Source: a virus (taxonomy: Duplodnaviria; Heunggongvirae; Uroviricota; Caudoviricetes). From it: a stretch of 4,083 nucleotides of DNA. A model generated the notes under the pieces. That model searched no databases. It was not told the DNA's origin and saw only the letters and a program-made list of their open reading frames with translations. Position numbers and translations under genes: made by a program. Positions 1-3,866 of this stretch are shown here, piece after piece. The number at the start of each line of letters is the position of its first letter. Position 1 is the first letter of the stretch. The stretch lies in IMG/VR virus record IMGVR_UViG_2606217102_000012. One strand, given 5' to 3'.

Positions 1-99
1 GGACAATTCCCATCACGGCGTAAACTCGGCGGTCGTTCCGTTGGCTGGTCTTTATCCGAAGTTCTGGCATGGAAGGACAGCCGCGAGGCAGTTCACTAA
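1..99 (+). CDS. alpA: AlpA/Vis-family phage regulatory protein (excisionase-like HTH), C-terminal fragment; 5' end lies outside the window
   Basis: Frame 1 reads GQFPSRRKLGGRSVGWSLSEVLAWKDSREAVH then stop (TAA 97-99). The FPxxRxLGxxSVGWxxxExxxW pattern matches the conserved C-terminus of AlpA-family proteins as recalled from memory (E. coli CP4-57 AlpA ...FPKKRMLGVKSVGWIEAEIDEWL...). Not verified by search. Confidence 0.7.
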   Translation, partial: GQFPSRRKLGGRSVGWSLSEVLAWKDSREAVH

Positions 100-240
100 T
101 CAGGCTGGCGGCGCACCGCCGCCACCCATCCACTAACACAGAGATCTAACCATGAATACTGGATATACGCCCGAACAGGGGCGGGGCTTCGTTCGTCCTG
201 GTGAAACTAAAAAGCCATGTTATCGGGTATTTTCAGGCAT

Positions 241-271
241 AAAAAAAGCGGCCCCGATAAGGAACCGCCTT
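241..271 (-). terminator. second, weaker hairpin plus T-run (possible back-up or bidirectional terminator between alpA and the minus-strand cassette)
   Basis: Imperfect stem GCGG(c)CC (248-254) / GG(a)CCGC (262-268) with a 7-nt loop. On the minus strand it is followed by a run of 7 T (plus-strand A-run 241-247); on the plus strand only by CTTTCT. Stem is short and interrupted. Confidence 0.3.
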
Positions 272-360
272 TCTGAACAATTAACCTGCTGCGAAAAAAA
301 TGGATCAGTGCAGGGGAATTATATCAACCGTGTGGTGAAGCGCCACTATTGCCGGATAAC

Positions 361-393
361 AAGCAAAACAAAGGCGACCGCAAAAGGGTCGCC
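361..393 (-). terminator. Rho-independent terminator candidate for the minus-strand RHH cassette
   Basis: Perfect 7-bp GC-rich inverted repeat GGCGACC (373-379) / GGTCGCC (387-393) with a 7-nt loop. On the minus strand the hairpin is followed immediately by TTTGTTTTGCTT (revcomp of 361-372). It lies 67 nt past the stop of the 460..633 gene. Confidence 0.55.
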
Positions 394-459
394 AGTGGGA
401 ACAAGGGAAAACAAAAGCATCACCAACAATGCCACATTTGCGGCTGGTGGGCAATGCAA

Positions 460-633
460 TCAGTCTGGTTCAGTTCGTTGCCATACCTGCAATGAGCGCT
501 TTTCCCTGTACTCTTTAAGGAATTGCTCAAGGGCAAAAGCACATGGCGCGAATCTTTCTGATTCATGCTCTATCTTTCTGCGCCGTCTTTTCCGTGTCGG
601 TGATAATGTTTTGGTCAATTCTTTATCGGTCAT
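460..633 (-). CDS. small highly basic hypothetical protein (57 aa; 62 aa if the upstream ATG at 648 is used), second gene of the RHH cassette
   Basis: Minus-strand ORF in tandem with the RHH gene (42-57 nt gap). The ATG at 633..631 has a weak AGGG SD-like sequence 7 nt upstream; stop TGA at 462..460. Product MTDKELTKTLSPTRKRRRRKIEHESERFAPCAFALEQFLKEYREKRSLQVWQRTEPD, with an R/K-rich stretch (TRKRRRRK). Followed 67 nt downstream by a hairpin plus T-tract. No family recognised. Confidence 0.45.
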   Translation of the reverse strand: MTDKELTKTLSPTRKRRRRKIEHESERFAPCAFALEQFLKEYREKRSLQVWQRTEPD

Positions 634-690
634 TGTGTTGCCCTGCATAGCAATGCGCCGTAGTTACTCACACCACGGCGCTGGTGATGG

Positions 691-870
691 TTACTCCTGC
701 TCTTTGGCCTTGCGACGCTGGCGGCGTTTGATCTCGCCTTTTGCGGCAGTAACTAAAAAACCAGCGGTACTTTCGCCAGGTTCTTTAAGTTGCTCAATAT
801 CATCCATTACTTCATGTGGGATTCTGACAGTTGTCATTTGTGATTTTGCGTTCTTTGCACCAGTTGCCAT
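691..870 (-). CDS. Arc/MetJ-type ribbon-helix-helix DNA-binding protein (59 aa), candidate element repressor or antitoxin-like regulator
   Basis: Minus-strand ATG at 870..868 preceded by AGGAGA (revcomp of 876-881) at good spacing; stop TAA at 693..691. Product MATGAKNAKSQMTTVRIPHEVMDDIEQLKEPGESTAGFLVTAAKGEIKRRQRRKAKEQE. The segment VRIPHEVMDDIEQL...GESTAGFLVTAAKGEI follows the Arc-repressor RHH pattern (beta-strand R-x-P-x-E-hydrophobic, then two helices). The six-frame track extends this ORF to 1038, but that N-terminal extension has no RBS and overlaps the promoter region. Confidence 0.65.
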   Translation of the reverse strand: MATGAKNAKSQMTTVRIPHEVMDDIEQLKEPGESTAGFLVTAAKGEIKRRQRRKAKEQE

Positions 871-891
871 TTCTGGATCTCCTAAAAATTG

Positions 892-984
892 GTGTATGTC
901 AGTATACGCAAAAAAAATGATAAAAAAAGGCTTGAAGTGTATTTCACCAGTGAGTAAATTAAAAAGCAAAGGTGAAATACACCT
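892..984. promoter_or_regulatory. divergent promoter/operator region between the minus-strand RHH gene and the plus-strand small-gene/rep operon
   Basis: Perfect 12-bp inverted repeat GTGTATTTCACC (937-948) / GGTGAAATACAC (971-982) separated by a 22-bp AT-rich spacer, plus another GTGTAT at 892-897. A-tracts at 909-929. Candidate sigma70-like elements: plus-strand TTGAAG (932-937), 17 bp, TAAATT (955-960); minus-strand -10-like TATACT (revcomp of 901-906). Promoter hexamers are weak matches and unverified. Confidence 0.4.
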
Positions 985-1063
985 AAAAGAGCAACGCCCC
1001 GCAGTGCTCGCAACACATGCAGGGCGTCTAACCACCAACGATAACGAGAGTATCGAGGTAGCT

Positions 1064-1270
1064 ATGAGAAATTATACCAGACACCCGCAAGGGCGGGACT
1101 CGTACAACCTGAATAAATACATCTGGCGTTTTATCGCCCTGAGCACGGCACAACCGCGCGTGATTACCATTGAGGCCACCAGCGAACAGGAAGCGCGTCA
1201 GCAATCTCCTGATGGCTGCGTGATGGTATTCGCTGCCCGTATTCGCCAGGGGGAAACCTATGCACAATAA
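1064..1270 (+). CDS. small hypothetical protein (68 aa), tentatively Icd-like (host cell division inhibitor family); first gene of the plus-strand operon
   Basis: ATG 1064 preceded by GAGG (1055-1058) with 5-nt spacing; stop TAA 1268-1270. Product MRNYTRHPQGRDSYNLNKYIWRFIALSTAQPRVITIEATSEQEARQQSPDGCVMVFAARIRQGETYAQ. The ...EAxSEQEAR...FAAR... C-terminal pattern resembles what I recall of Icd-like small proteins in P4-like/satellite islands; family assignment is from memory only. These are the last 68 codons of the otherwise spurious 152..1270 ORF. Confidence 0.5.
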   Translation: MRNYTRHPQGRDSYNLNKYIWRFIALSTAQPRVITIEATSEQEARQQSPDGCVMVFAARIRQGETYAQ

Positions 1271-1721: not shown

Positions 1722-2009
1722 ATGAAAAATAAAAATTCTGGCTTTACTGCCAGCGGCCCCGCTCGGCCTGAAATCCGCCCCGGCGATATTTTCCGGGATA
1801 ACTATGGCGGCACGGTAACGATAAAAGGCGTGGCAGAACGGCGCATCACTTACCGCCGTGATGGCTACGAATATGACTGCGTGATGCCTGTTTATCAGTT
1901 CCGGCGTGATTTCACGCTGGTGGGCCATCGTAAAGCCGTAAATCAGAAACGTGCAGCAAGTCATATCCGCAAAATTCGTGAAATGCTGGTCGCAGGGGGT
2001 AAAAAATGA
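1722..2009 (+). CDS. hypothetical basic protein (95 aa), translationally coupled to the downstream helicase gene
   Basis: ATG 1722 begins 6 nt after the upstream stop; its stop TGA (2007-2009) overlaps the ATG of the rep gene (2006-2008) in ATGA. Product MKNKNSGFTASGPARPEIRPGDIFRDNYGGTVTIKGVAERRITYRRDGYEYDCVMPVYQFRRDFTLVGHRKAVNQKRAASHIRKIREMLVAGGKK. No family recognised. Confidence 0.55.
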   Translation: MKNKNSGFTASGPARPEIRPGDIFRDNYGGTVTIKGVAERRITYRRDGYEYDCVMPVYQFRRDFTLVGHRKAVNQKRAASHIRKIREMLVAGGKK

Positions 2010-3412
2010 AACTGGCACCGAACGTAAAACTGTTACCGAAAGATAAACACACTGAGGCGGTTATTTTTGCGGGTGATAATGCTCACTCCTTTGCAGAACA
2101 TTACATGATTGCACAGGCCAAAAAAGCAGGCGATCCCATCCCTCCGGTTTACCTGGGCCGTTATCAGTTAAGCGAACTGGACAACCTGCAGATTGTTGAT
2201 GAGGGGCGATACAGGGTAACGGTGATACGCGCCGGAAATATTGACGAAGCGCAGCTGTTAACCATAGCGACAAAACTGGCGATCGCCGGAGTCCAGGAAG
2301 CGCGGCTGCTTTCTGAAAACTTCGAATTACTGGAGAAATGGACCGACCAGCTTCCACGGCTACGGGAGACATGGGAGAGAGGGGAAAGCCTGATCATGAA
2401 CGGAGGAAAACAAAAAATCACGCTACCGATTTCATGGGGTTCTGAGGGATTCGACGCGCAGCAAAGCTACGTAATTAAGGGGCTTATTCCGGCTGAATCA
2501 TTATGCAGCACCTACGGGGCCAGCGGTTCTTATAAATCGTTCCTGGCTATTTCCTGGTCGTGCCATGTTGCCACAGGTATGGCATGGGGAGGCCGCAGGG
2601 TAAGTAAGGGCGCGGTTATCTATATCGCTGGCGAAGGCAGTATGGGCGTAAAACGCCGCGTTAAGGCGTGGGAGATAACCCACGACAAGGTGGTTACGGA
2701 TTTGTGCATCGTTAACGCGCCTGTCTTCCCTGCATCGCCTGACTATGTGGAGCAGGTTATCAGGACCGCCGGATTAGTGCAGGACAGAACGGGCGAAAGG
2801 GTGCGGATGATTGTCATTGACACGCTGGCCCGTTGCTTTGGTGGTCATGATGAAAATGACTCCCGCGACATGGGGGCGTTTATCCAGGGGTGTGACGCGA
2901 TAAAGCAGGCCACGGGGGCCACGGTTCTGGTTGTGCATCATTCCGGCAAGGATGAGACGAAAGGGGCGCGGGGTTCCAGTGCATTCCGTGCGGCGCTTGA
3001 TGCTGAGTTCCGAATCAGTCGGGAACATTCAGAGGCTACGGCGCTGGTTGCAGCATGTACGAAGATGAAGGACGCGGAGGAGCCAAAAGAAAGCGCCTAC
3101 GACCTTAAGAGCGTGGAGGTATTTACGGATCCTGAGGGTGAAGAAATCGTGTCCATGGTGGTGATTGACGTTCCCCGCGCCCCTGCTGAACTGGAGCGCA
3201 TAGAGGAGGCCGGGAACAAGACGGAAAATCACACGGCTTTATGGGGTTGTATCCGGTCACGTATACAGCATGGTGATAAATGCACGATCCCGCTGCTACG
3301 TGATGACATGAAAAAGCTGGGATATGACACAAAACACCTTAAACGATGGTTAGCCAAACTGGAAAAAGACGGCGTGATTTGCGTCGATGGGGATGATGTT
3401 CACCCACTGTAA
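2006..3412 (+). CDS. RepA-like RecA-fold (AAA_25-type) ATPase / replicative helicase-initiator of the element (468 aa)
   Basis: Long ORF with SD AGGGGG (1994-1999) 6 nt before the ATG. P-loop-like motif YGASGSYKSFLAI; Walker B / helicase motif RMIVIDTLARCF followed by HDENDSRDM; motif TVLVVHHSGKDETKGARGSSAFRAALDAEFRI typical of RepA/DnaB-like RecA-fold helicases. N-terminal ~150 aa and C-terminal ~90 aa regions (...DDMKKLGYDTKHLKRWLAKLEKDGVI..., possibly winged-helix) are unassigned. Iteron array begins at its stop codon. Confidence 0.85.
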   Translation: MKLAPNVKLLPKDKHTEAVIFAGDNAHSFAEHYMIAQAKKAGDPIPPVYLGRYQLSELDNLQIVDEGRYRVTVIRAGNIDEAQLLTIATKLAIAGVQEARLLSENFELLEKWTDQLPRLRETWERGESLIMNGGKQKITLPISWGSEGFDAQQSYVIKGLIPAESLCSTYGASGSYKSFLAISWSCHVATGMAWGGRRVSKGAVIYIAGEGSMGVKRRVKAWEITHDKVVTDLCIVNAPVFPASPDYVEQVIRTAGLVQDRTGERVRMIVIDTLARCFGGHDENDSRDMGAFIQGCDAIKQATGATVLVVHHSGKDETKGARGSSAFRAALDAEFRISREHSEATALVAACTKMKDAEEPKESAYDLKSVEVFTDPEGEEIVSMVVIDVPRAPAELERIEEAGNKTENHTALWGCIRSRIQHGDKCTIPLLRDDMKKLGYDTKHLKRWLAKLEKDGVICVDGDDVHPL

Positions 3413-3612
3413 AAAGTGGGCGTTAAAAGTGGGAATAGTGGGTAATTTAACTGGAATTTAACAAAATCGCCCACTTTCCCACGTGTATACATCCCAAAAA
3501 GTGGGCACTAAAAAAATTCTTATGAAACAGTACGATATAAAACCACAAAATCCCAGGTGGGACGAAGTGGGAAACCATGAAAAGTGGGTAGAAAAAGTGG
3601 GCGCAGGTGGGC
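3403..3612. repeat. iteron array, candidate origin of replication (ori) of the element
   Basis: Direct copies of (A)AGTGGG ending at 3420, 3433, 3442, 3505, 3571, 3588 and 3601, plus AGGTGGG variants ending at 3561 and 3611. Inverted copies CCCACT at 3403-3408 and 3470-3475, and CCCAC at 3478-3482. Two clusters (3403-3505 and 3555-3612) flank an AT-rich ~45-bp segment (3506-3550). AATTTAAC occurs twice (3444-3451, 3455-3462). Placement directly 3' of the helicase gene matches the rep-ori layout of SaPI/PICI-type elements. Confidence 0.7.
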
Positions 3613-3614
3613 GC

Positions 3615-3866
3615 ATGACCAGAAAAACCAGAGATAAGACAACACCAAAATATCGCGCATTAGACATGACAGAGCACGCCTTAAAGGTGGCAATCAGAAC
3701 GATAGACCGCCACGCCGGAGAAGGATACGCGAAAGCACATCCCGAACTGATAAGCGCATTCATGATCACGGCGGCGGCAAATTTTGCCACACTGACAGAA
3801 CGGGAGATTGCCGAAGCGGAACAGGTGACAACCATCAACGTTAAAACCGGAGAGCAGACAGCATGA
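3615..3866 (+). CDS. hypothetical protein (83 aa); start uncertain
   Basis: ATG 3615 preceded by AGGTGG (3605-3610, itself an iteron variant) with 4-nt spacing; stop TGA 3864-3866 overlaps the next ATG (3863) in ATGA. Product MTRKTRDKTTPKYRALDMTEHALKVAIRTIDRHAGEGYAKAHPELISAFMITAAANFATLTEREIAEAEQVTTINVKTGEQTA. The track's start at 3483 is a GTG and would make the iterons coding, which is judged unlikely. Confidence 0.45.
   Translation: MTRKTRDKTTPKYRALDMTEHALKVAIRTIDRHAGEGYAKAHPELISAFMITAAANFATLTEREIAEAEQVTTINVKTGEQTA

What the first reader, a model, noticed from the sequence alone, without database searches (positions are those of the whole stretch)
460..870. Oppositely oriented two-gene cassette: Arc-like RHH protein plus a 57-aa arginine-rich protein with its own terminator; candidate master repressor or RHH-led toxin-antitoxin-like module
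The cassette is transcribed against the rest of the module, sits between alpA and the replication operon, and has a strong RBS and a clean hairpin plus T-tract terminator, so it looks like an autonomous unit. An RHH protein transcribed divergently from the replication operon occupies the position of the master repressor in SaPI/PICI-type islands (Stl). RHH-first two-gene operons are also the classical layout of type II TA modules (ParD/ParE, CcdA/CcdB), though the second protein resembles no toxin I recognise. Its function is not evident from sequence.
Basis: inference. Interest (0 to 1): 0.55.

Follow-up and report, generated by a model that had tools for sequence, protein, structure and literature searches.

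The report
Allele-specific RHH repressor of a satellite
A tiny DNA-binding protein gene in an E. coli phage satellite looks like the element's own switch-off (immunity) repressor, because its three nearby binding sites change in step with the protein across many relatives. Its 57-residue neighbour is an E. coli-only passenger, not a toxin partner.

Summary
The minus strand carries a 59-aa ribbon-helix-helix (RHH) gene (691-870, YlcI/YnfO family) and a 57-aa arginine-rich ORF (460-633), followed by terminators.

The window is the alpA-to-replication part of an E. coli PICI/P4-like satellite. The master-repressor reading is supported by comparative evidence:
- Three operator-like sites (891-903, 936-948, 971-983) bracket a positionally conserved promoter of the icd/kil-like replication operon.
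- In about 70 RHH alleles from many Enterobacterales genera, all three sites change together with the RHH beta-strand.
- The sites do not track AlpA, Icd or the 57-aa protein.

The toxin-antitoxin reading is not supported:
- The 57-aa gene is confined to E. coli/Shigella.
- It is absent downstream of the RHH gene in other genera.
- It is linked to more than 10 different RHH alleles, including Arc-like ones.
- It has no toxin-like fold.

Its coding signature is moderate and its function is unknown.

Unexpectedly, the whole cassette lies antisense inside a long plus-strand ORF (152-1270). That ORF is kept open across the "intergenic" region and ends in the Icd-like domain that phage P4's eta/kil region also carries. 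The locus therefore looks like P4's immunity region with a protein repressor in place of the CI RNA. Everything about function is inference; nothing was tested experimentally.

The parts
1..99 (+). 3' end of alpA (AlpA/Vis-type regulator), stop TAA at 97-99
   Evidence: The translation GQFPSRRKLGGRSVGWSLSEVLAWKDSREAVH matches full-length AlpA of related loci. Those proteins are Pfam Phage_AlpA, E 2.7e-18.
152..1270 (+). Long eta-like ORF (372 aa). Its C-terminus is the Icd/Kil-like domain. It runs antisense through both cassette genes and through the operator region.
   Evidence: ORF listed. NF033153 Icd-like domain at residues 323-366. This frame has no stops in the roughly 200-nt RHH-icd spacer in 42 of 50 unique sequences, against 3 of 50 and 0 of 50 for the other plus frames. 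It is open over the whole alpA-icd gap in 73 of 126 unique segments.
373..393 (-). Intrinsic terminator of the cassette (7-bp stem with 6 GC pairs, then TTTGTTTT)
408..457 (-). First 3'-UTR hairpin followed by a U run (possible tandem terminator)
   Evidence: RNA fold of 355-470 on the minus strand, z -3.96.
460..633 (-). 57-aa arginine-rich ORF ('P57'). Predicted disordered basic N-terminus (residues 1-23) and one helix (29-54). Function unknown.
   Evidence: (phrog_21027).
655..681 (-). Hairpin between the RHH stop and the P57 start. It is part of the constant segment shared by all RHH alleles.
   Evidence: (I21).
691..870 (-). 59-aa RHH protein, YlcI/YnfO family; candidate immunity/maintenance repressor
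879..883 (-). Shine-Dalgarno AGGAG of the RHH gene
   Evidence: Read from the sequence.
891..903 (.). Operator-like site O1 (GGTGTATGTCAGT). It abuts the putative -10 (TATACT, 906-901) of the RHH promoter.
932..960 (+). Putative promoter of the icd/kil-like replication operon: TTGAAG (932-937), 17 nt, TAAATT (955-960)
   Evidence: Read from the sequence; it scores 8 of 12, below the threshold of the scan. A -35 at this same position is the best sigma-70-like match in 75 of 100 unique upstream sequences.
936..948 (.). Operator-like site O2 (AGTGTATTTCACC), in the spacer of the icd promoter
971..983 (.). Operator-like site O3 (GGTGAAATACACC, inverted), just downstream of the -10 of the icd promoter
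994..1027 (+). Conserved hairpin in the leader of the icd/kil-like gene, followed by conserved TCTAACCACC
1064..1270 (+). Icd/Kil-like 68-aa gene nested at the end of the eta-like ORF; first gene of the replication operon
   Evidence: NF033153, E 1e-19. The P4 eta/kil-region ORF carries the same domain, E 8e-21.

Best explanation
The cassette is the maintenance (immunity-type) arm of a P4/PICI-like phage satellite.

RHH protein. The 59-aa RHH protein is an autoregulated repressor. It most likely binds three roughly 13-bp GGTG-N5-CACC-type sites. O2 and O3 sandwich the -10 of the promoter that drives the icd/kil-like gene and the replication genes. O1 abuts the -10 of the RHH gene's own promoter. 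This would keep the satellite's early/replication operon shut while the element is integrated. The recognition residues in the beta-strand and the operators have diversified together into many specificity classes, like phage immunity types. That would let several satellites share one cell without cross-repression.

Override. The cassette lies antisense inside a long eta-like reading frame that starts just after alpA and ends in the Icd/Kil-like domain, as in phage P4. By analogy with P4's late promoter, helper-induced AlpA-dependent transcription from the alpA side is proposed to read and translate through this frame. That would bypass the repressed internal promoter and run head-on into the repressor operon.

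57-aa protein. It is a lineage-specific passenger co-transcribed with the repressor. It is probably a small nucleic-acid-binding protein with a basic arm plus one helix. It is not a toxin neutralised by the RHH protein.

What is shown: the genes, the fold, the sites, the co-variation and the open frame. What is inferred: binding, repression, read-through and any role of the 57-aa protein.
For: Fold and family:
- NF041551 at 64 bits.
- AF2 pLDDT 88.

Conserved layout:
- The RHH gene is divergent from the icd-like gene, with a roughly 200-nt spacer, in 77 loci from Escherichia, Yersinia, Pectobacterium, Xenorhabdus, Serratia, Proteus and other genera.
- alpA and int lie beyond the RHH gene in about 50 of 77 loci.

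Sites:
- Three copies fall within 93 bp; a fourth, 3-mismatch match at 2332-2344 looks like chance (1.18 matches expected).
- In about 70 alleles, three sites sit at about -101/-114, -77 and -32 from the RHH ATG, and their core differs by allele.
- Loci with at most one beta-strand difference share 62% of their repeated 9-mers, against 1.1% for other pairs; 0 of 2000 permutations reached this.
- Repeated 9-mers are kept better than the rest of the spacer (64% against 26% within a class).

Natural swaps:
- Window against L001: Icd and P57 are 100% identical, RHH is 51% identical, and the operators differ.
- L005, L002, L004 and L244 share AlpA at 90-97% but have four RHH alleles and four operator sets.
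- L244 and L243 have AlpA at 61% but RHH at 100% and identical operators.

Promoter geometry:
- The -35 lies at the same position in 75 of 100 unique sequences, and the operators flank the -10.

Co-resident elements carry different alleles:
- Only 1 of 26 pairs is the same. In Xenorhabdus it is 0 of 16 against a 21.8% background.

P4 analogy:
- The P4 eta/kil ORF and this long ORF share NF033153.
- Vis and AlpA are both PF05930.
- The frame is kept open.
- P4 eta/kil logic as summarised in PMC10111431.
- AlpA acts as an antiterminator in P. aeruginosa (abstracts listed).
- Fillol-Salom 2018 states that a global repressor in Gram-negative PICIs is 'unclear' and that AlpA is the activator.
Against: - There is no experimental evidence of binding or repression.
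- The RHH N-terminus and the operators are physically adjacent, so linkage alone produces some co-variation: non-repeated 9-mers are also shared more within a class (26% against about 2%).
- The promoters fall below the threshold of the generic scan.
- No Pfam RHH family reaches its cut-off for this protein. The Foldseek search was not significant.
- The long frame is open in only about 58% of unique alpA-icd segments, and it is short in Pectobacterium/Dickeya. Read-through translation therefore cannot be universal.
- Published work on E. coli PICIs explains induction by AlpA alone and mentions no such repressor.
- The role of P57 is a guess.
Confidence: 0.6

Rival explanations
1. Type II toxin-antitoxin-like module: the RHH protein is an antitoxin that neutralises the 57-aa protein and autoregulates the operon.
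For: - The layout is an RHH-first two-gene operon.
- The C-terminal tail RRQRRKAKE(Q/P/S)E is constant across many YlcI-type alleles that precede P57.
Against: - P57 is restricted to E. coli/Shigella: 32 clusters and 9 representatives among 1.84 billion proteins.
- The RHH gene is solo in other genera and in some E. coli islands such as L004.
- An identical P57 follows RHH alleles of 51-66% identity, as well as Arc-like proteins ending in RRGIEPKG.
- The same basic tail is present where P57 is absent.
- There is no toxin family, defence-system or PDB match.
- The model is a disordered arm plus one helix.
- The two genes are separated by a 57-nt gap with a hairpin, not by overlap.
Confidence: 0.05
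2. The 57-aa ORF is not translated. The cassette is a monocistronic RHH gene with a long structured 3' UTR, and the ORF persists because the segment is constrained for other reasons (antisense eta-like frame, RNA structure).
For: - dN/dS of 0.36-0.38 is only modestly better than other frames (0.42-0.62).
- The antisense eta frame is open in all 36 variants.
- The N- and C-terminal parts evolve almost neutrally (2:10 and 6:19 synonymous to non-synonymous), and tails are frameshifted in some relatives.
- The Shine-Dalgarno sequence is weak (AGGG).
- PGAP omits the gene in some genomes.
Against: - Core codons 11-41 show 12 synonymous to 7 non-synonymous changes, and third-position variation dominates (11/5/2). 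Both are better than any other frame, including the eta frame at 9:10.
- Divergent relatives have in-frame 2-aa insertions.
- The start codon and the length are conserved in 36 of 38 unique sequences.
- A PHROG family exists.
Confidence: 0.2
3. The RHH protein is a CopG/Omega-like copy-number controller. It throttles the replication operon after induction, rather than acting as a quiescence or immunity repressor.
For: - The fold and operator logic match plasmid CopG/Omega repressors, which bind repeats at rep promoters (established knowledge of those families).
- The target operon encodes RepA-type helicase and SSB.
Against: - The diversification into many specificity classes, and the different alleles in co-resident elements, are what immunity predicts.
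- The position equals the P4 immunity region.
- The two roles are not mutually exclusive.
Confidence: 0.15
4. Only the plus-strand long ORF (a 'Bro-network'/eta-like protein) is real, and the minus-strand ORFs are shadow ORFs.
For: - The long frame is conserved and open.
- PGAP and other annotators call only plus-strand genes here in some records.
- Published PICI maps describe the genes as unidirectional.
Against: - dN/dS in the RHH frame is 0.149, against 0.234 for the wobble-sharing antisense frame.
- The RHH gene has a curated family match, a confident RHH fold and a strong Shine-Dalgarno sequence.
- The RHH gene and its three sites persist in Pectobacterium/Dickeya loci, where the plus frame is open for only 11-31 codons.
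- The N-terminal 300 residues of the long ORF match no family.
Confidence: 0.03

Closest known systems
Phage P4 immunity region (vis - eta/kil - CI RNA, promoters PLL/PLE)
   Same: - An AlpA/Vis-type gene lies upstream (PF05930 in both).
- A long ORF begins after it, contains an internal early promoter and ends in a small nested Icd/Kil-like gene (NF033153 in both).
- Replication genes lie downstream.
- The frame is kept open across the internal promoter, as expected if translation from upstream transcripts matters (P4 logic as summarised in PMC10111431).
   Different: - P4 immunity is an RNA (CI) acting on termination. No C4/IsrK-type RNA was found here.
- Here an antisense-encoded RHH protein with three DNA sites sits at the equivalent place.
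- P4 has no gene on the opposite strand of eta.
Stl/Rpr master repressors of SaPIs and Gram-positive PICIs
   Same: - Transcribed divergently from the excision/replication operon.
- Expected to hold the island silent.
- Sited in the regulatory region next to int and the regulator genes.
   Different: - No homology: the fold is RHH, and the protein is 59 aa.
- Induction of Gram-negative PICIs is reported to need the activator AlpA.
- No helper-protein antirepressor is known or testable here.
Arc and Mnt of phage P22, CopG and Omega (RHH transcriptional repressors)
   Same: - Small size.
- Repeated short operators overlapping promoters.
- Autoregulation geometry.
   Different: - Sequence family differs: YlcI/YnfO, with Pfam Arc below threshold.
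- Three sites are spread over about 90 bp and serve two back-to-back promoters.
- There is a very large allele series with matched operators.
RHH antitoxins of type II TA systems (ParD, CcdA, CopA_SO, TacA, Rv0298)
   Same: RHH fold, and first gene of a two-gene operon.
   Different: - No toxin-binding extension.
- The partner gene is not conserved, not co-varying and not toxin-like.
E. coli K-12 YlcI (DLP12) and YnfO (Qin)
   Same: Same NCBIfam family, NF041551.
   Different: - Those are uncharacterised prophage genes. My literature search found no functional study.
- Their genomic context was not examined here.
Arginine-rich-motif peptides of lambdoid phages (N, Nun), as a lead for the 57-aa protein only
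   Same: A short basic arm (RKRRRRK) at the N-terminus of a small protein in an element that lives with lambdoid helpers. This resemblance is from memory and composition only.
   Different: No family hit, no alignment and no target RNA identified. Membership is not claimed.

Membership tests
Ribbon-helix-helix (Arc/MetJ/CopG) DNA-binding superfamily | Beta-strand, helix, helix fold of about 45 residues | tested here: met
   [not shown]
Ribbon-helix-helix (Arc/MetJ/CopG) DNA-binding superfamily | Sequence match to a curated RHH family | tested here: inconclusive
   No Pfam RHH family reaches its cut-off; the best was GhoS/DUF noise. The PDB sequence profile search found nothing. NCBIfam YlcI_YnfO_N is matched, but that model is not labelled RHH.
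Ribbon-helix-helix (Arc/MetJ/CopG) DNA-binding superfamily | Dimer inserts a two-stranded sheet into the major groove of repeated sites | tested here: inconclusive
   Only indirect evidence. Three sites per locus co-vary with beta-strand residues 11-15, while R16 and the outer GTG/CAC are constant. No binding assay or complex model was possible.
YlcI/YnfO family (NF041551) | Score above the curated cut-off over the full model | tested here: met
   64 bits against a cut-off of 30, covering model positions 1-42 of 42.
Type II toxin-antitoxin module | Two adjacent co-oriented small genes, antitoxin with a DNA-binding domain | tested here: met
Type II toxin-antitoxin module | Second protein belongs to, or folds like, a known toxin family | tested here: not met
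   Pfam, NCBIfam, PADLOC and PDB searches found none. The AF2 model is a disordered arm plus a single helix.
Type II toxin-antitoxin module | The two genes are inherited and co-vary as a pair | tested here: not met
   The RHH gene is solo in other genera. One P57 pairs with at least 10 RHH alleles of two types. P57 is 100% identical where the RHH protein is 51% identical.
Type II toxin-antitoxin module | Toxicity of the second protein and rescue by the first | not testable with these tools
   Needs expression experiments.
PICI/SaPI master repressor (Stl/Rpr) | Divergent from the excision/replication operon in the island's regulatory region | tested here: met
PICI/SaPI master repressor (Stl/Rpr) | Homology to Stl/Rpr proteins | not tested
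   No Stl/Rpr sequence or structure was compared here. The protein is 59 aa with an RHH fold, and from memory Stl proteins are much larger helix-turn-helix proteins, so homology looks unlikely.
PICI/SaPI master repressor (Stl/Rpr) | Represses island genes and is relieved by a helper-phage protein | not testable with these tools
   Needs genetics and biochemistry.
P4-type immunity region | vis/alpA followed by a long ORF with a nested Icd/Kil-like gene and an internal promoter | tested here: met
P4-type immunity region | CI/C4-type immunity RNA with target sites | tested here: not met
   No Rfam match at E up to 1 other than one chance-level hit. A different conserved leader hairpin exists.

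The most novel reading that the evidence does not exclude
The YlcI/YnfO-type RHH protein is the missing immunity/master repressor of Gram-negative PICIs and related P4-like satellites. It comes in dozens of specificity classes that make co-resident satellites heteroimmune.

It is encoded antisense inside the eta-like reading frame. Helper-triggered, AlpA-dependent transcription and translation of that frame would therefore both bypass the repressed promoter and shut down repressor synthesis by head-on transcription, giving a convergent-transcription switch.

The 57-aa arginine-rich protein, made only while the satellite is quiescent, would act on RNA or DNA of the helper phage or of rival satellites.
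Probability: 0.3. Interest if true: 0.8.

Novelty: new variant of a known kind. Interest (0 to 1): 0.62.

Why it matters
The paper that defined Gram-negative PICIs says it is unclear whether these islands have a global repressor at all; only the activator AlpA is known (PMC6092414). Later comparative work describes the alpA-to-replication zone as unidirectional Bro-network genes and immunity RNAs (PMC10111431).

This analysis gives a concrete, testable candidate. It is a 59-aa protein with mapped sites and a ready-made panel of natural specificity variants for swap experiments.

It also shows that annotation pipelines treat this region inconsistently. The segment carrying the 57-aa ORF that follows this RHH gene is present in 1586 of 5426 complete E. 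coli genomes.

If confirmed, three things would follow:
- It would explain how several related satellites coexist in one genome.
- It would link PICI regulation to the P4 paradigm.
- It would document a protein gene embedded antisense in a frame that is itself kept open.

The orthogonal repressor-operator pairs might also be useful parts for synthetic biology.

Tried and rejected
- PDB sequence-profile searches for both proteins gave only noise.
- PADLOC found no defence-system match for five proteins.
- tblastn of both proteins against 50,697 phage records found nothing. A divergent RHH allele does exist in the satellite-like record LR881103, so this reflects sensitivity.
- Rfam found no C4/IsrK or other family.
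- The generic promoter scan found no promoter at its threshold. Promoter calls therefore rest on positional conservation.
- The profile search of 1.84 billion representatives added no remote relatives of the 57-aa protein.
- hhalign of the 63-aa ORF of L005 to the P57 profile was weak: probability 23% over 18 columns. I treat that ORF as a possible analogue only.
- I fetched a CFT073 region hoping to find EcCICFT073 and got a lambdoid prophage instead. Presence of the cassette in that prototype was not checked.
- The P4 eta/kil paper (PMC94026) is not held. I rely on its summary in PMC10111431 and on memory.
- My first alpA translation used the wrong frame. I corrected it by reading frame 1 and comparing with full-length AlpA.
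- I considered and rejected AlpA, Icd or P57 as the factor that reads the three sites, because natural swaps separate them from the sites.
Full report
WHAT IS IN THE WINDOW

The 4083-bp window is the left part of an E. coli phage satellite of the PICI/cf-PICI type. Megablast finds it on the chromosome of 1916 of 5426 complete E. coli genomes. It sits next to integrase and alpA genes and is followed by capsid, decoration and small-terminase genes.

The gene order in the window is as follows:
- the end of alpA (1-99);
- two minus-strand ORFs (460-633 and 691-870);
- then, on the plus strand, an Icd-like gene (1064-1270), two small ORFs, DUF4222, a RepA/AAA_25 helicase (2006-3412), a small ORF and SSB.

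- The 59-aa ORF has an AGGAG 8 nt before its ATG.
- The 57-aa ORF has 9 Arg and 6 Lys.
- A 7-bp, GC-rich hairpin with a T run at 393-373 ends the unit. A second hairpin plus U run precedes it, and the 3' region as a whole folds with z -3.96.

THE FIRST GENE

The 59-aa protein is a member of NCBIfam NF041551, YlcI/YnfO (64 bits, cut-off 30), and of phrog_949. No Pfam family and no PDB sequence matched.

The gene is clearly coding. Among 18 unique sequences of one allele class from eight genera, pS is 0.58 and pN is 0.086 (ratio 0.149), and 46 of 73 variable sites are third positions.

Relatives form 179 clusters in Salmonella, Enterobacter, Klebsiella, Pectobacterium, Dickeya, Yersinia, Hafnia, Morganella, Xenorhabdus, Edwardsiella, Serratia and other genera.

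THE SITES AND THEIR CO-VARIATION

The 193 bp between the RHH start and the icd ATG contain three copies of a GGTG-N5-CACC-like 13-mer, at 891-903, 936-948 and 971-983 (inverted). A fourth, 3-mismatch match at 2332-2344 looks like chance; 1.18 matches are expected by chance in the whole window.

I fetched 77 loci from one-genome-per-species contigs using the RHH profile, and 160 loci from metagenomes and viral contigs using the 57-aa protein.

In about 70 distinct RHH alleles there are again three sites, at about -101/-114, -77 and -32 from the RHH ATG, but their core sequence differs by allele. Examples of beta-strand against site:
- KSQMTTVRIP with GGTGTATTTCACC, in Escherichia, Yersinia, Phytobacter, Pectobacterium, Hafnia, Kosakonia, Raoultella and Xenorhabdus;
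- KSQQLNARFP with TGAATCGCACC, in Escherichia, Dickeya, Pectobacterium, Citrobacter, Xenorhabdus and Morganella;
- KSKKLEARVP with GTGTCAGCCAC;
- KSLQVSVRLP with GGTGAACACCAC.

The outer GTG/CAC and Arg16 are constant. The centre of the site and residues 11-15 vary.

Quantitatively, loci with at most one beta-strand difference share 62% of their repeated 9-mers, and all other pairs share 1.1%; 0 of 2000 label permutations reached this difference. Linkage contributes, because non-repeated 9-mers are also shared more within a class (26%). Even so, the repeats are kept better (64%). More tellingly, all three copies within a locus have changed to the same new sequence, which linkage cannot explain.

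WHICH PROTEIN READS THE SITES

Natural recombinants separate the candidates:
- The window and L001 have identical Icd-like and 57-aa proteins but RHH proteins only 51% identical, and their site sets differ.
- L005, L002, L004 and L244 share AlpA at 90-97% identity yet carry four RHH alleles and four site sets.
- L244 and L243 have AlpA proteins only 61% identical but identical RHH proteins and identical sites.

So the sites follow the RHH protein.

PROMOTER GEOMETRY

The best sigma-70-like match on the icd side has its -35 at the same distance (60-64 nt from the RHH ATG) in 75 of 100 unique upstream sequences. In the window this is TTGAAG (932-937), 17 nt, TAAATT (955-960).

O2 fills the spacer and O3 starts just after the -10. 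O1 abuts a TATACT (906-901) that is the likely -10 of the RHH promoter. These promoters score 8 of 12 or less, and the generic scan did not report them, so they are predictions.

HETEROIMMUNITY

Genomes with several such elements carry different alleles. Only 1 of 26 co-resident pairs is the same (2.4 expected). Within Xenorhabdus it is 0 of 16 against a 21.8% background, P about 0.02. Draft assemblies may collapse identical copies, so this support is modest.

THE SECOND GENE

The 57-aa protein has only 32 clusters among 5.8 billion, almost all E. coli or Shigella. It has 9 representatives among 1.84 billion in a full HMMER scan.

It has no Pfam, NCBIfam, PADLOC or PDB match. Only phrog_21027, of unknown function, matches.

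In the other genera, nothing homologous follows the RHH gene. The space up to alpA is 0.2-1.8 kb of variable content.

Within E. coli, the 57-aa ORF segment (window 440-690) is the constant part: it is found in 1586 of 5426 genomes. This particular RHH/operator allele is found at full length in only 121.

The same 57-aa protein follows at least 10 YlcI-type alleles. It also follows three Arc-like small proteins that end in RRGIEPKG and have their own repeated sites. Pfam support for those Arc-like proteins is below threshold: HicB E 5e-4 and Arc E 0.04-0.14.

The AlphaFold model (pLDDT 73) is a disordered basic arm (1-23) plus one helix (29-54).

Coding evidence is moderate:
- The core SPxRKRRRRKIEHESERFAPCAFALEQFLKE shows 12 synonymous to 7 non-synonymous distinct changes, with third-position variation dominant. 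This is better than any other frame.
- Divergent relatives carry in-frame insertions.
- The ends, however, evolve almost neutrally, and some tails are frameshifted.

These facts fail the defining tests of a toxin-antitoxin pair: no toxin fold, no co-inheritance and no co-variation.

AN UNEXPECTED LAYER

The plus strand has a 372-codon ORF (152-1270) that runs antisense through both cassette genes and the operator region and ends as the Icd-like protein. I first took it for a shadow ORF, but it is not random.

In the roughly 200-nt RHH-icd spacer, the icd frame has no stop in 42 of 50 unique sequences (14 of 19 allele classes). The other two plus frames are stop-free in 3 of 50 and 0 of 50, averaging 4.6 and 5.5 stops.

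In 73 of 126 unique alpA-icd segments, the frame is open over the entire 0.6-1.8 kb gap. In those, a first ATG typically lies 10-60 nt after the alpA stop. This also holds in Phytobacter, Raoultella, Hafnia, Proteus, Serratia and others, but not in Pectobacterium/Dickeya.

The ORF of phage P4 annotated as 'cI gene product' (the eta/kil region) carries the same NF033153 domain (E 8e-21). P4 Vis and the AlpA proteins here are both PF05930.

According to the summary of P4 work in PMC10111431:
- kil is nested at the end of eta;
- eta begins upstream of the constitutive promoter PLE;
- eta is translated only from the late promoter upstream;
- its translation prevents immunity-dependent termination.

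The window has the same skeleton, but no CI-type RNA. Instead, a protein repressor gene lies on the other strand.

The frame that is open is the one whose third positions coincide with those of the RHH gene. This explains its low apparent dN/dS (0.234 against 0.149 for the RHH frame). It also shows that the RHH protein is the primary constraint there.

MODEL

Shown: the genes, the fold, the sites, their co-variation, the fixed promoter position and the open frame.

Inferred:
- The RHH protein binds O1-O3. It represses the icd/kil-replication promoter and its own promoter, and so holds the integrated satellite silent and confers allele-specific immunity.
- On helper infection, AlpA is made (shown for E. 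coli PICIs).
- Transcription from the alpA side then reads, and is translated, through the eta-like frame into the replication genes. This would be independent of the repressed promoter and head-on to the repressor operon.
- AlpA of P. aeruginosa is a processive antiterminator (abstracts listed), which would fit reading through the hairpins in this region.
- The 57-aa protein is a passenger expressed with the repressor. A nucleic-acid-binding role is a guess from composition.

COMPARISON AND NOVELTY

The closest system is the P4 immunity region, with the differences given above. Functionally the RHH protein resembles Arc/Mnt, CopG or Omega. Positionally it resembles Stl, but it is not an Stl homologue.

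In the searchable literature I found no study of YlcI/YnfO function and no description of a protein repressor in Gram-negative PICIs:
- one paper calls its existence unclear;
- another describes the zone as Bro-network genes and immunity RNAs with mostly unidirectional genes;
- a 2026 survey lists 'YlcI/YnfO, prophage-associated protein' merely as cargo of cf-PICIs.

Subscription-journal papers are not covered, so prior description cannot be excluded. I rate it a new variant of a known kind.

CAVEATS
- All functional statements are comparative inference.
- Many E. coli loci are close relatives, although I dereplicated them.
- The promoters are weak matches.
- The structure model is a monomer.
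- I did not verify the cassette in the experimentally studied EcCICFT073 or EcCIEDL933. An O157:H7 island at roxA-phoQ does carry the 57-aa ORF segment, which PGAP annotates there only as a plus-strand pseudogene.

Noticed in passing
window 152-1270 (+): A 372-codon ORF runs antisense through both cassette genes and the operator region and ends in the Icd/Kil-like domain. Its frame is kept free of stops in the 'intergenic' spacer in 42 of 50 unique sequences, and over the whole alpA-icd gap in 73 of 126. It looks like the counterpart of P4 eta with nested kil.
   Followed up: yes
window 994-1027 and 1028-1040 (+): A conserved hairpin sits in the leader of the icd/kil-like gene, followed by an almost invariant TCTAACCAC(C/A)A. 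The RNA fold has z -3.4. Across 24 diverse alleles, 5 of 9 pairs show compensatory changes. No Rfam family matches. On the minus strand the same hairpin is followed by a T-rich run. Its function is unknown.
   Followed up: partly
window 3414-3601: Seven exact AAGTGGG repeats (one inverted) lie immediately after the repA-type helicase gene, against 0.52 expected by chance. This is probably the satellite's iteron-type replication origin.
   Followed up: partly
window 655-681 (-): A 10-bp hairpin sits between the RHH stop and the 57-aa ORF start. It lies at the start of the constant segment that recombines with all RHH alleles. It is not followed by a clear U run, so it may be an attenuator or a processing site.
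   Followed up: partly
L134/L225, L112/L121 and L183 (upstream of the 57-aa gene, locus coordinates about 1250-1450): In some E. coli islands the YlcI-type RHH gene is replaced by unrelated small Arc-like proteins (for example ...SPQFRMRISPELKEQFDKEAQSDGISLANWLKEL...RRGIEPKG). These have their own repeats (GGTGACCACC; GGTAATTACCATGT). This is cassette exchange of repressor plus operators at one position.
   Followed up: partly
L243, L244, L247 and L245 (annotation tables): Annotation of this region is inconsistent between records. Some call the minus-strand RHH gene plus a hypothetical gene. Some call a plus-strand 'Icd-like' or 'BRO-N' pseudogene over the same DNA. The record LR881103 calls only a 324-aa plus-strand protein that contains an antisense RHH ORF.
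   Followed up: partly
L017 3179-3443, L038 3194-3431, L005 about 3427-3618: The slot between the RHH gene and alpA holds other small ORFs in other elements: 87 aa and 78 aa ORFs overlapping the RHH stop, and a 63-aa basic ORF in E. coli GF4. None has a family match, so this is a variable cargo position.
   Followed up: partly
phrog_6196 / P4 NC_001609 8168-8584: The PHROG label 'transcriptional repressor' for Icd-like proteins appears to derive from the old P4 annotation 'cI gene product' for the eta/kil ORF. P4 immunity is actually an RNA, so the label is probably misleading.
   Followed up: no
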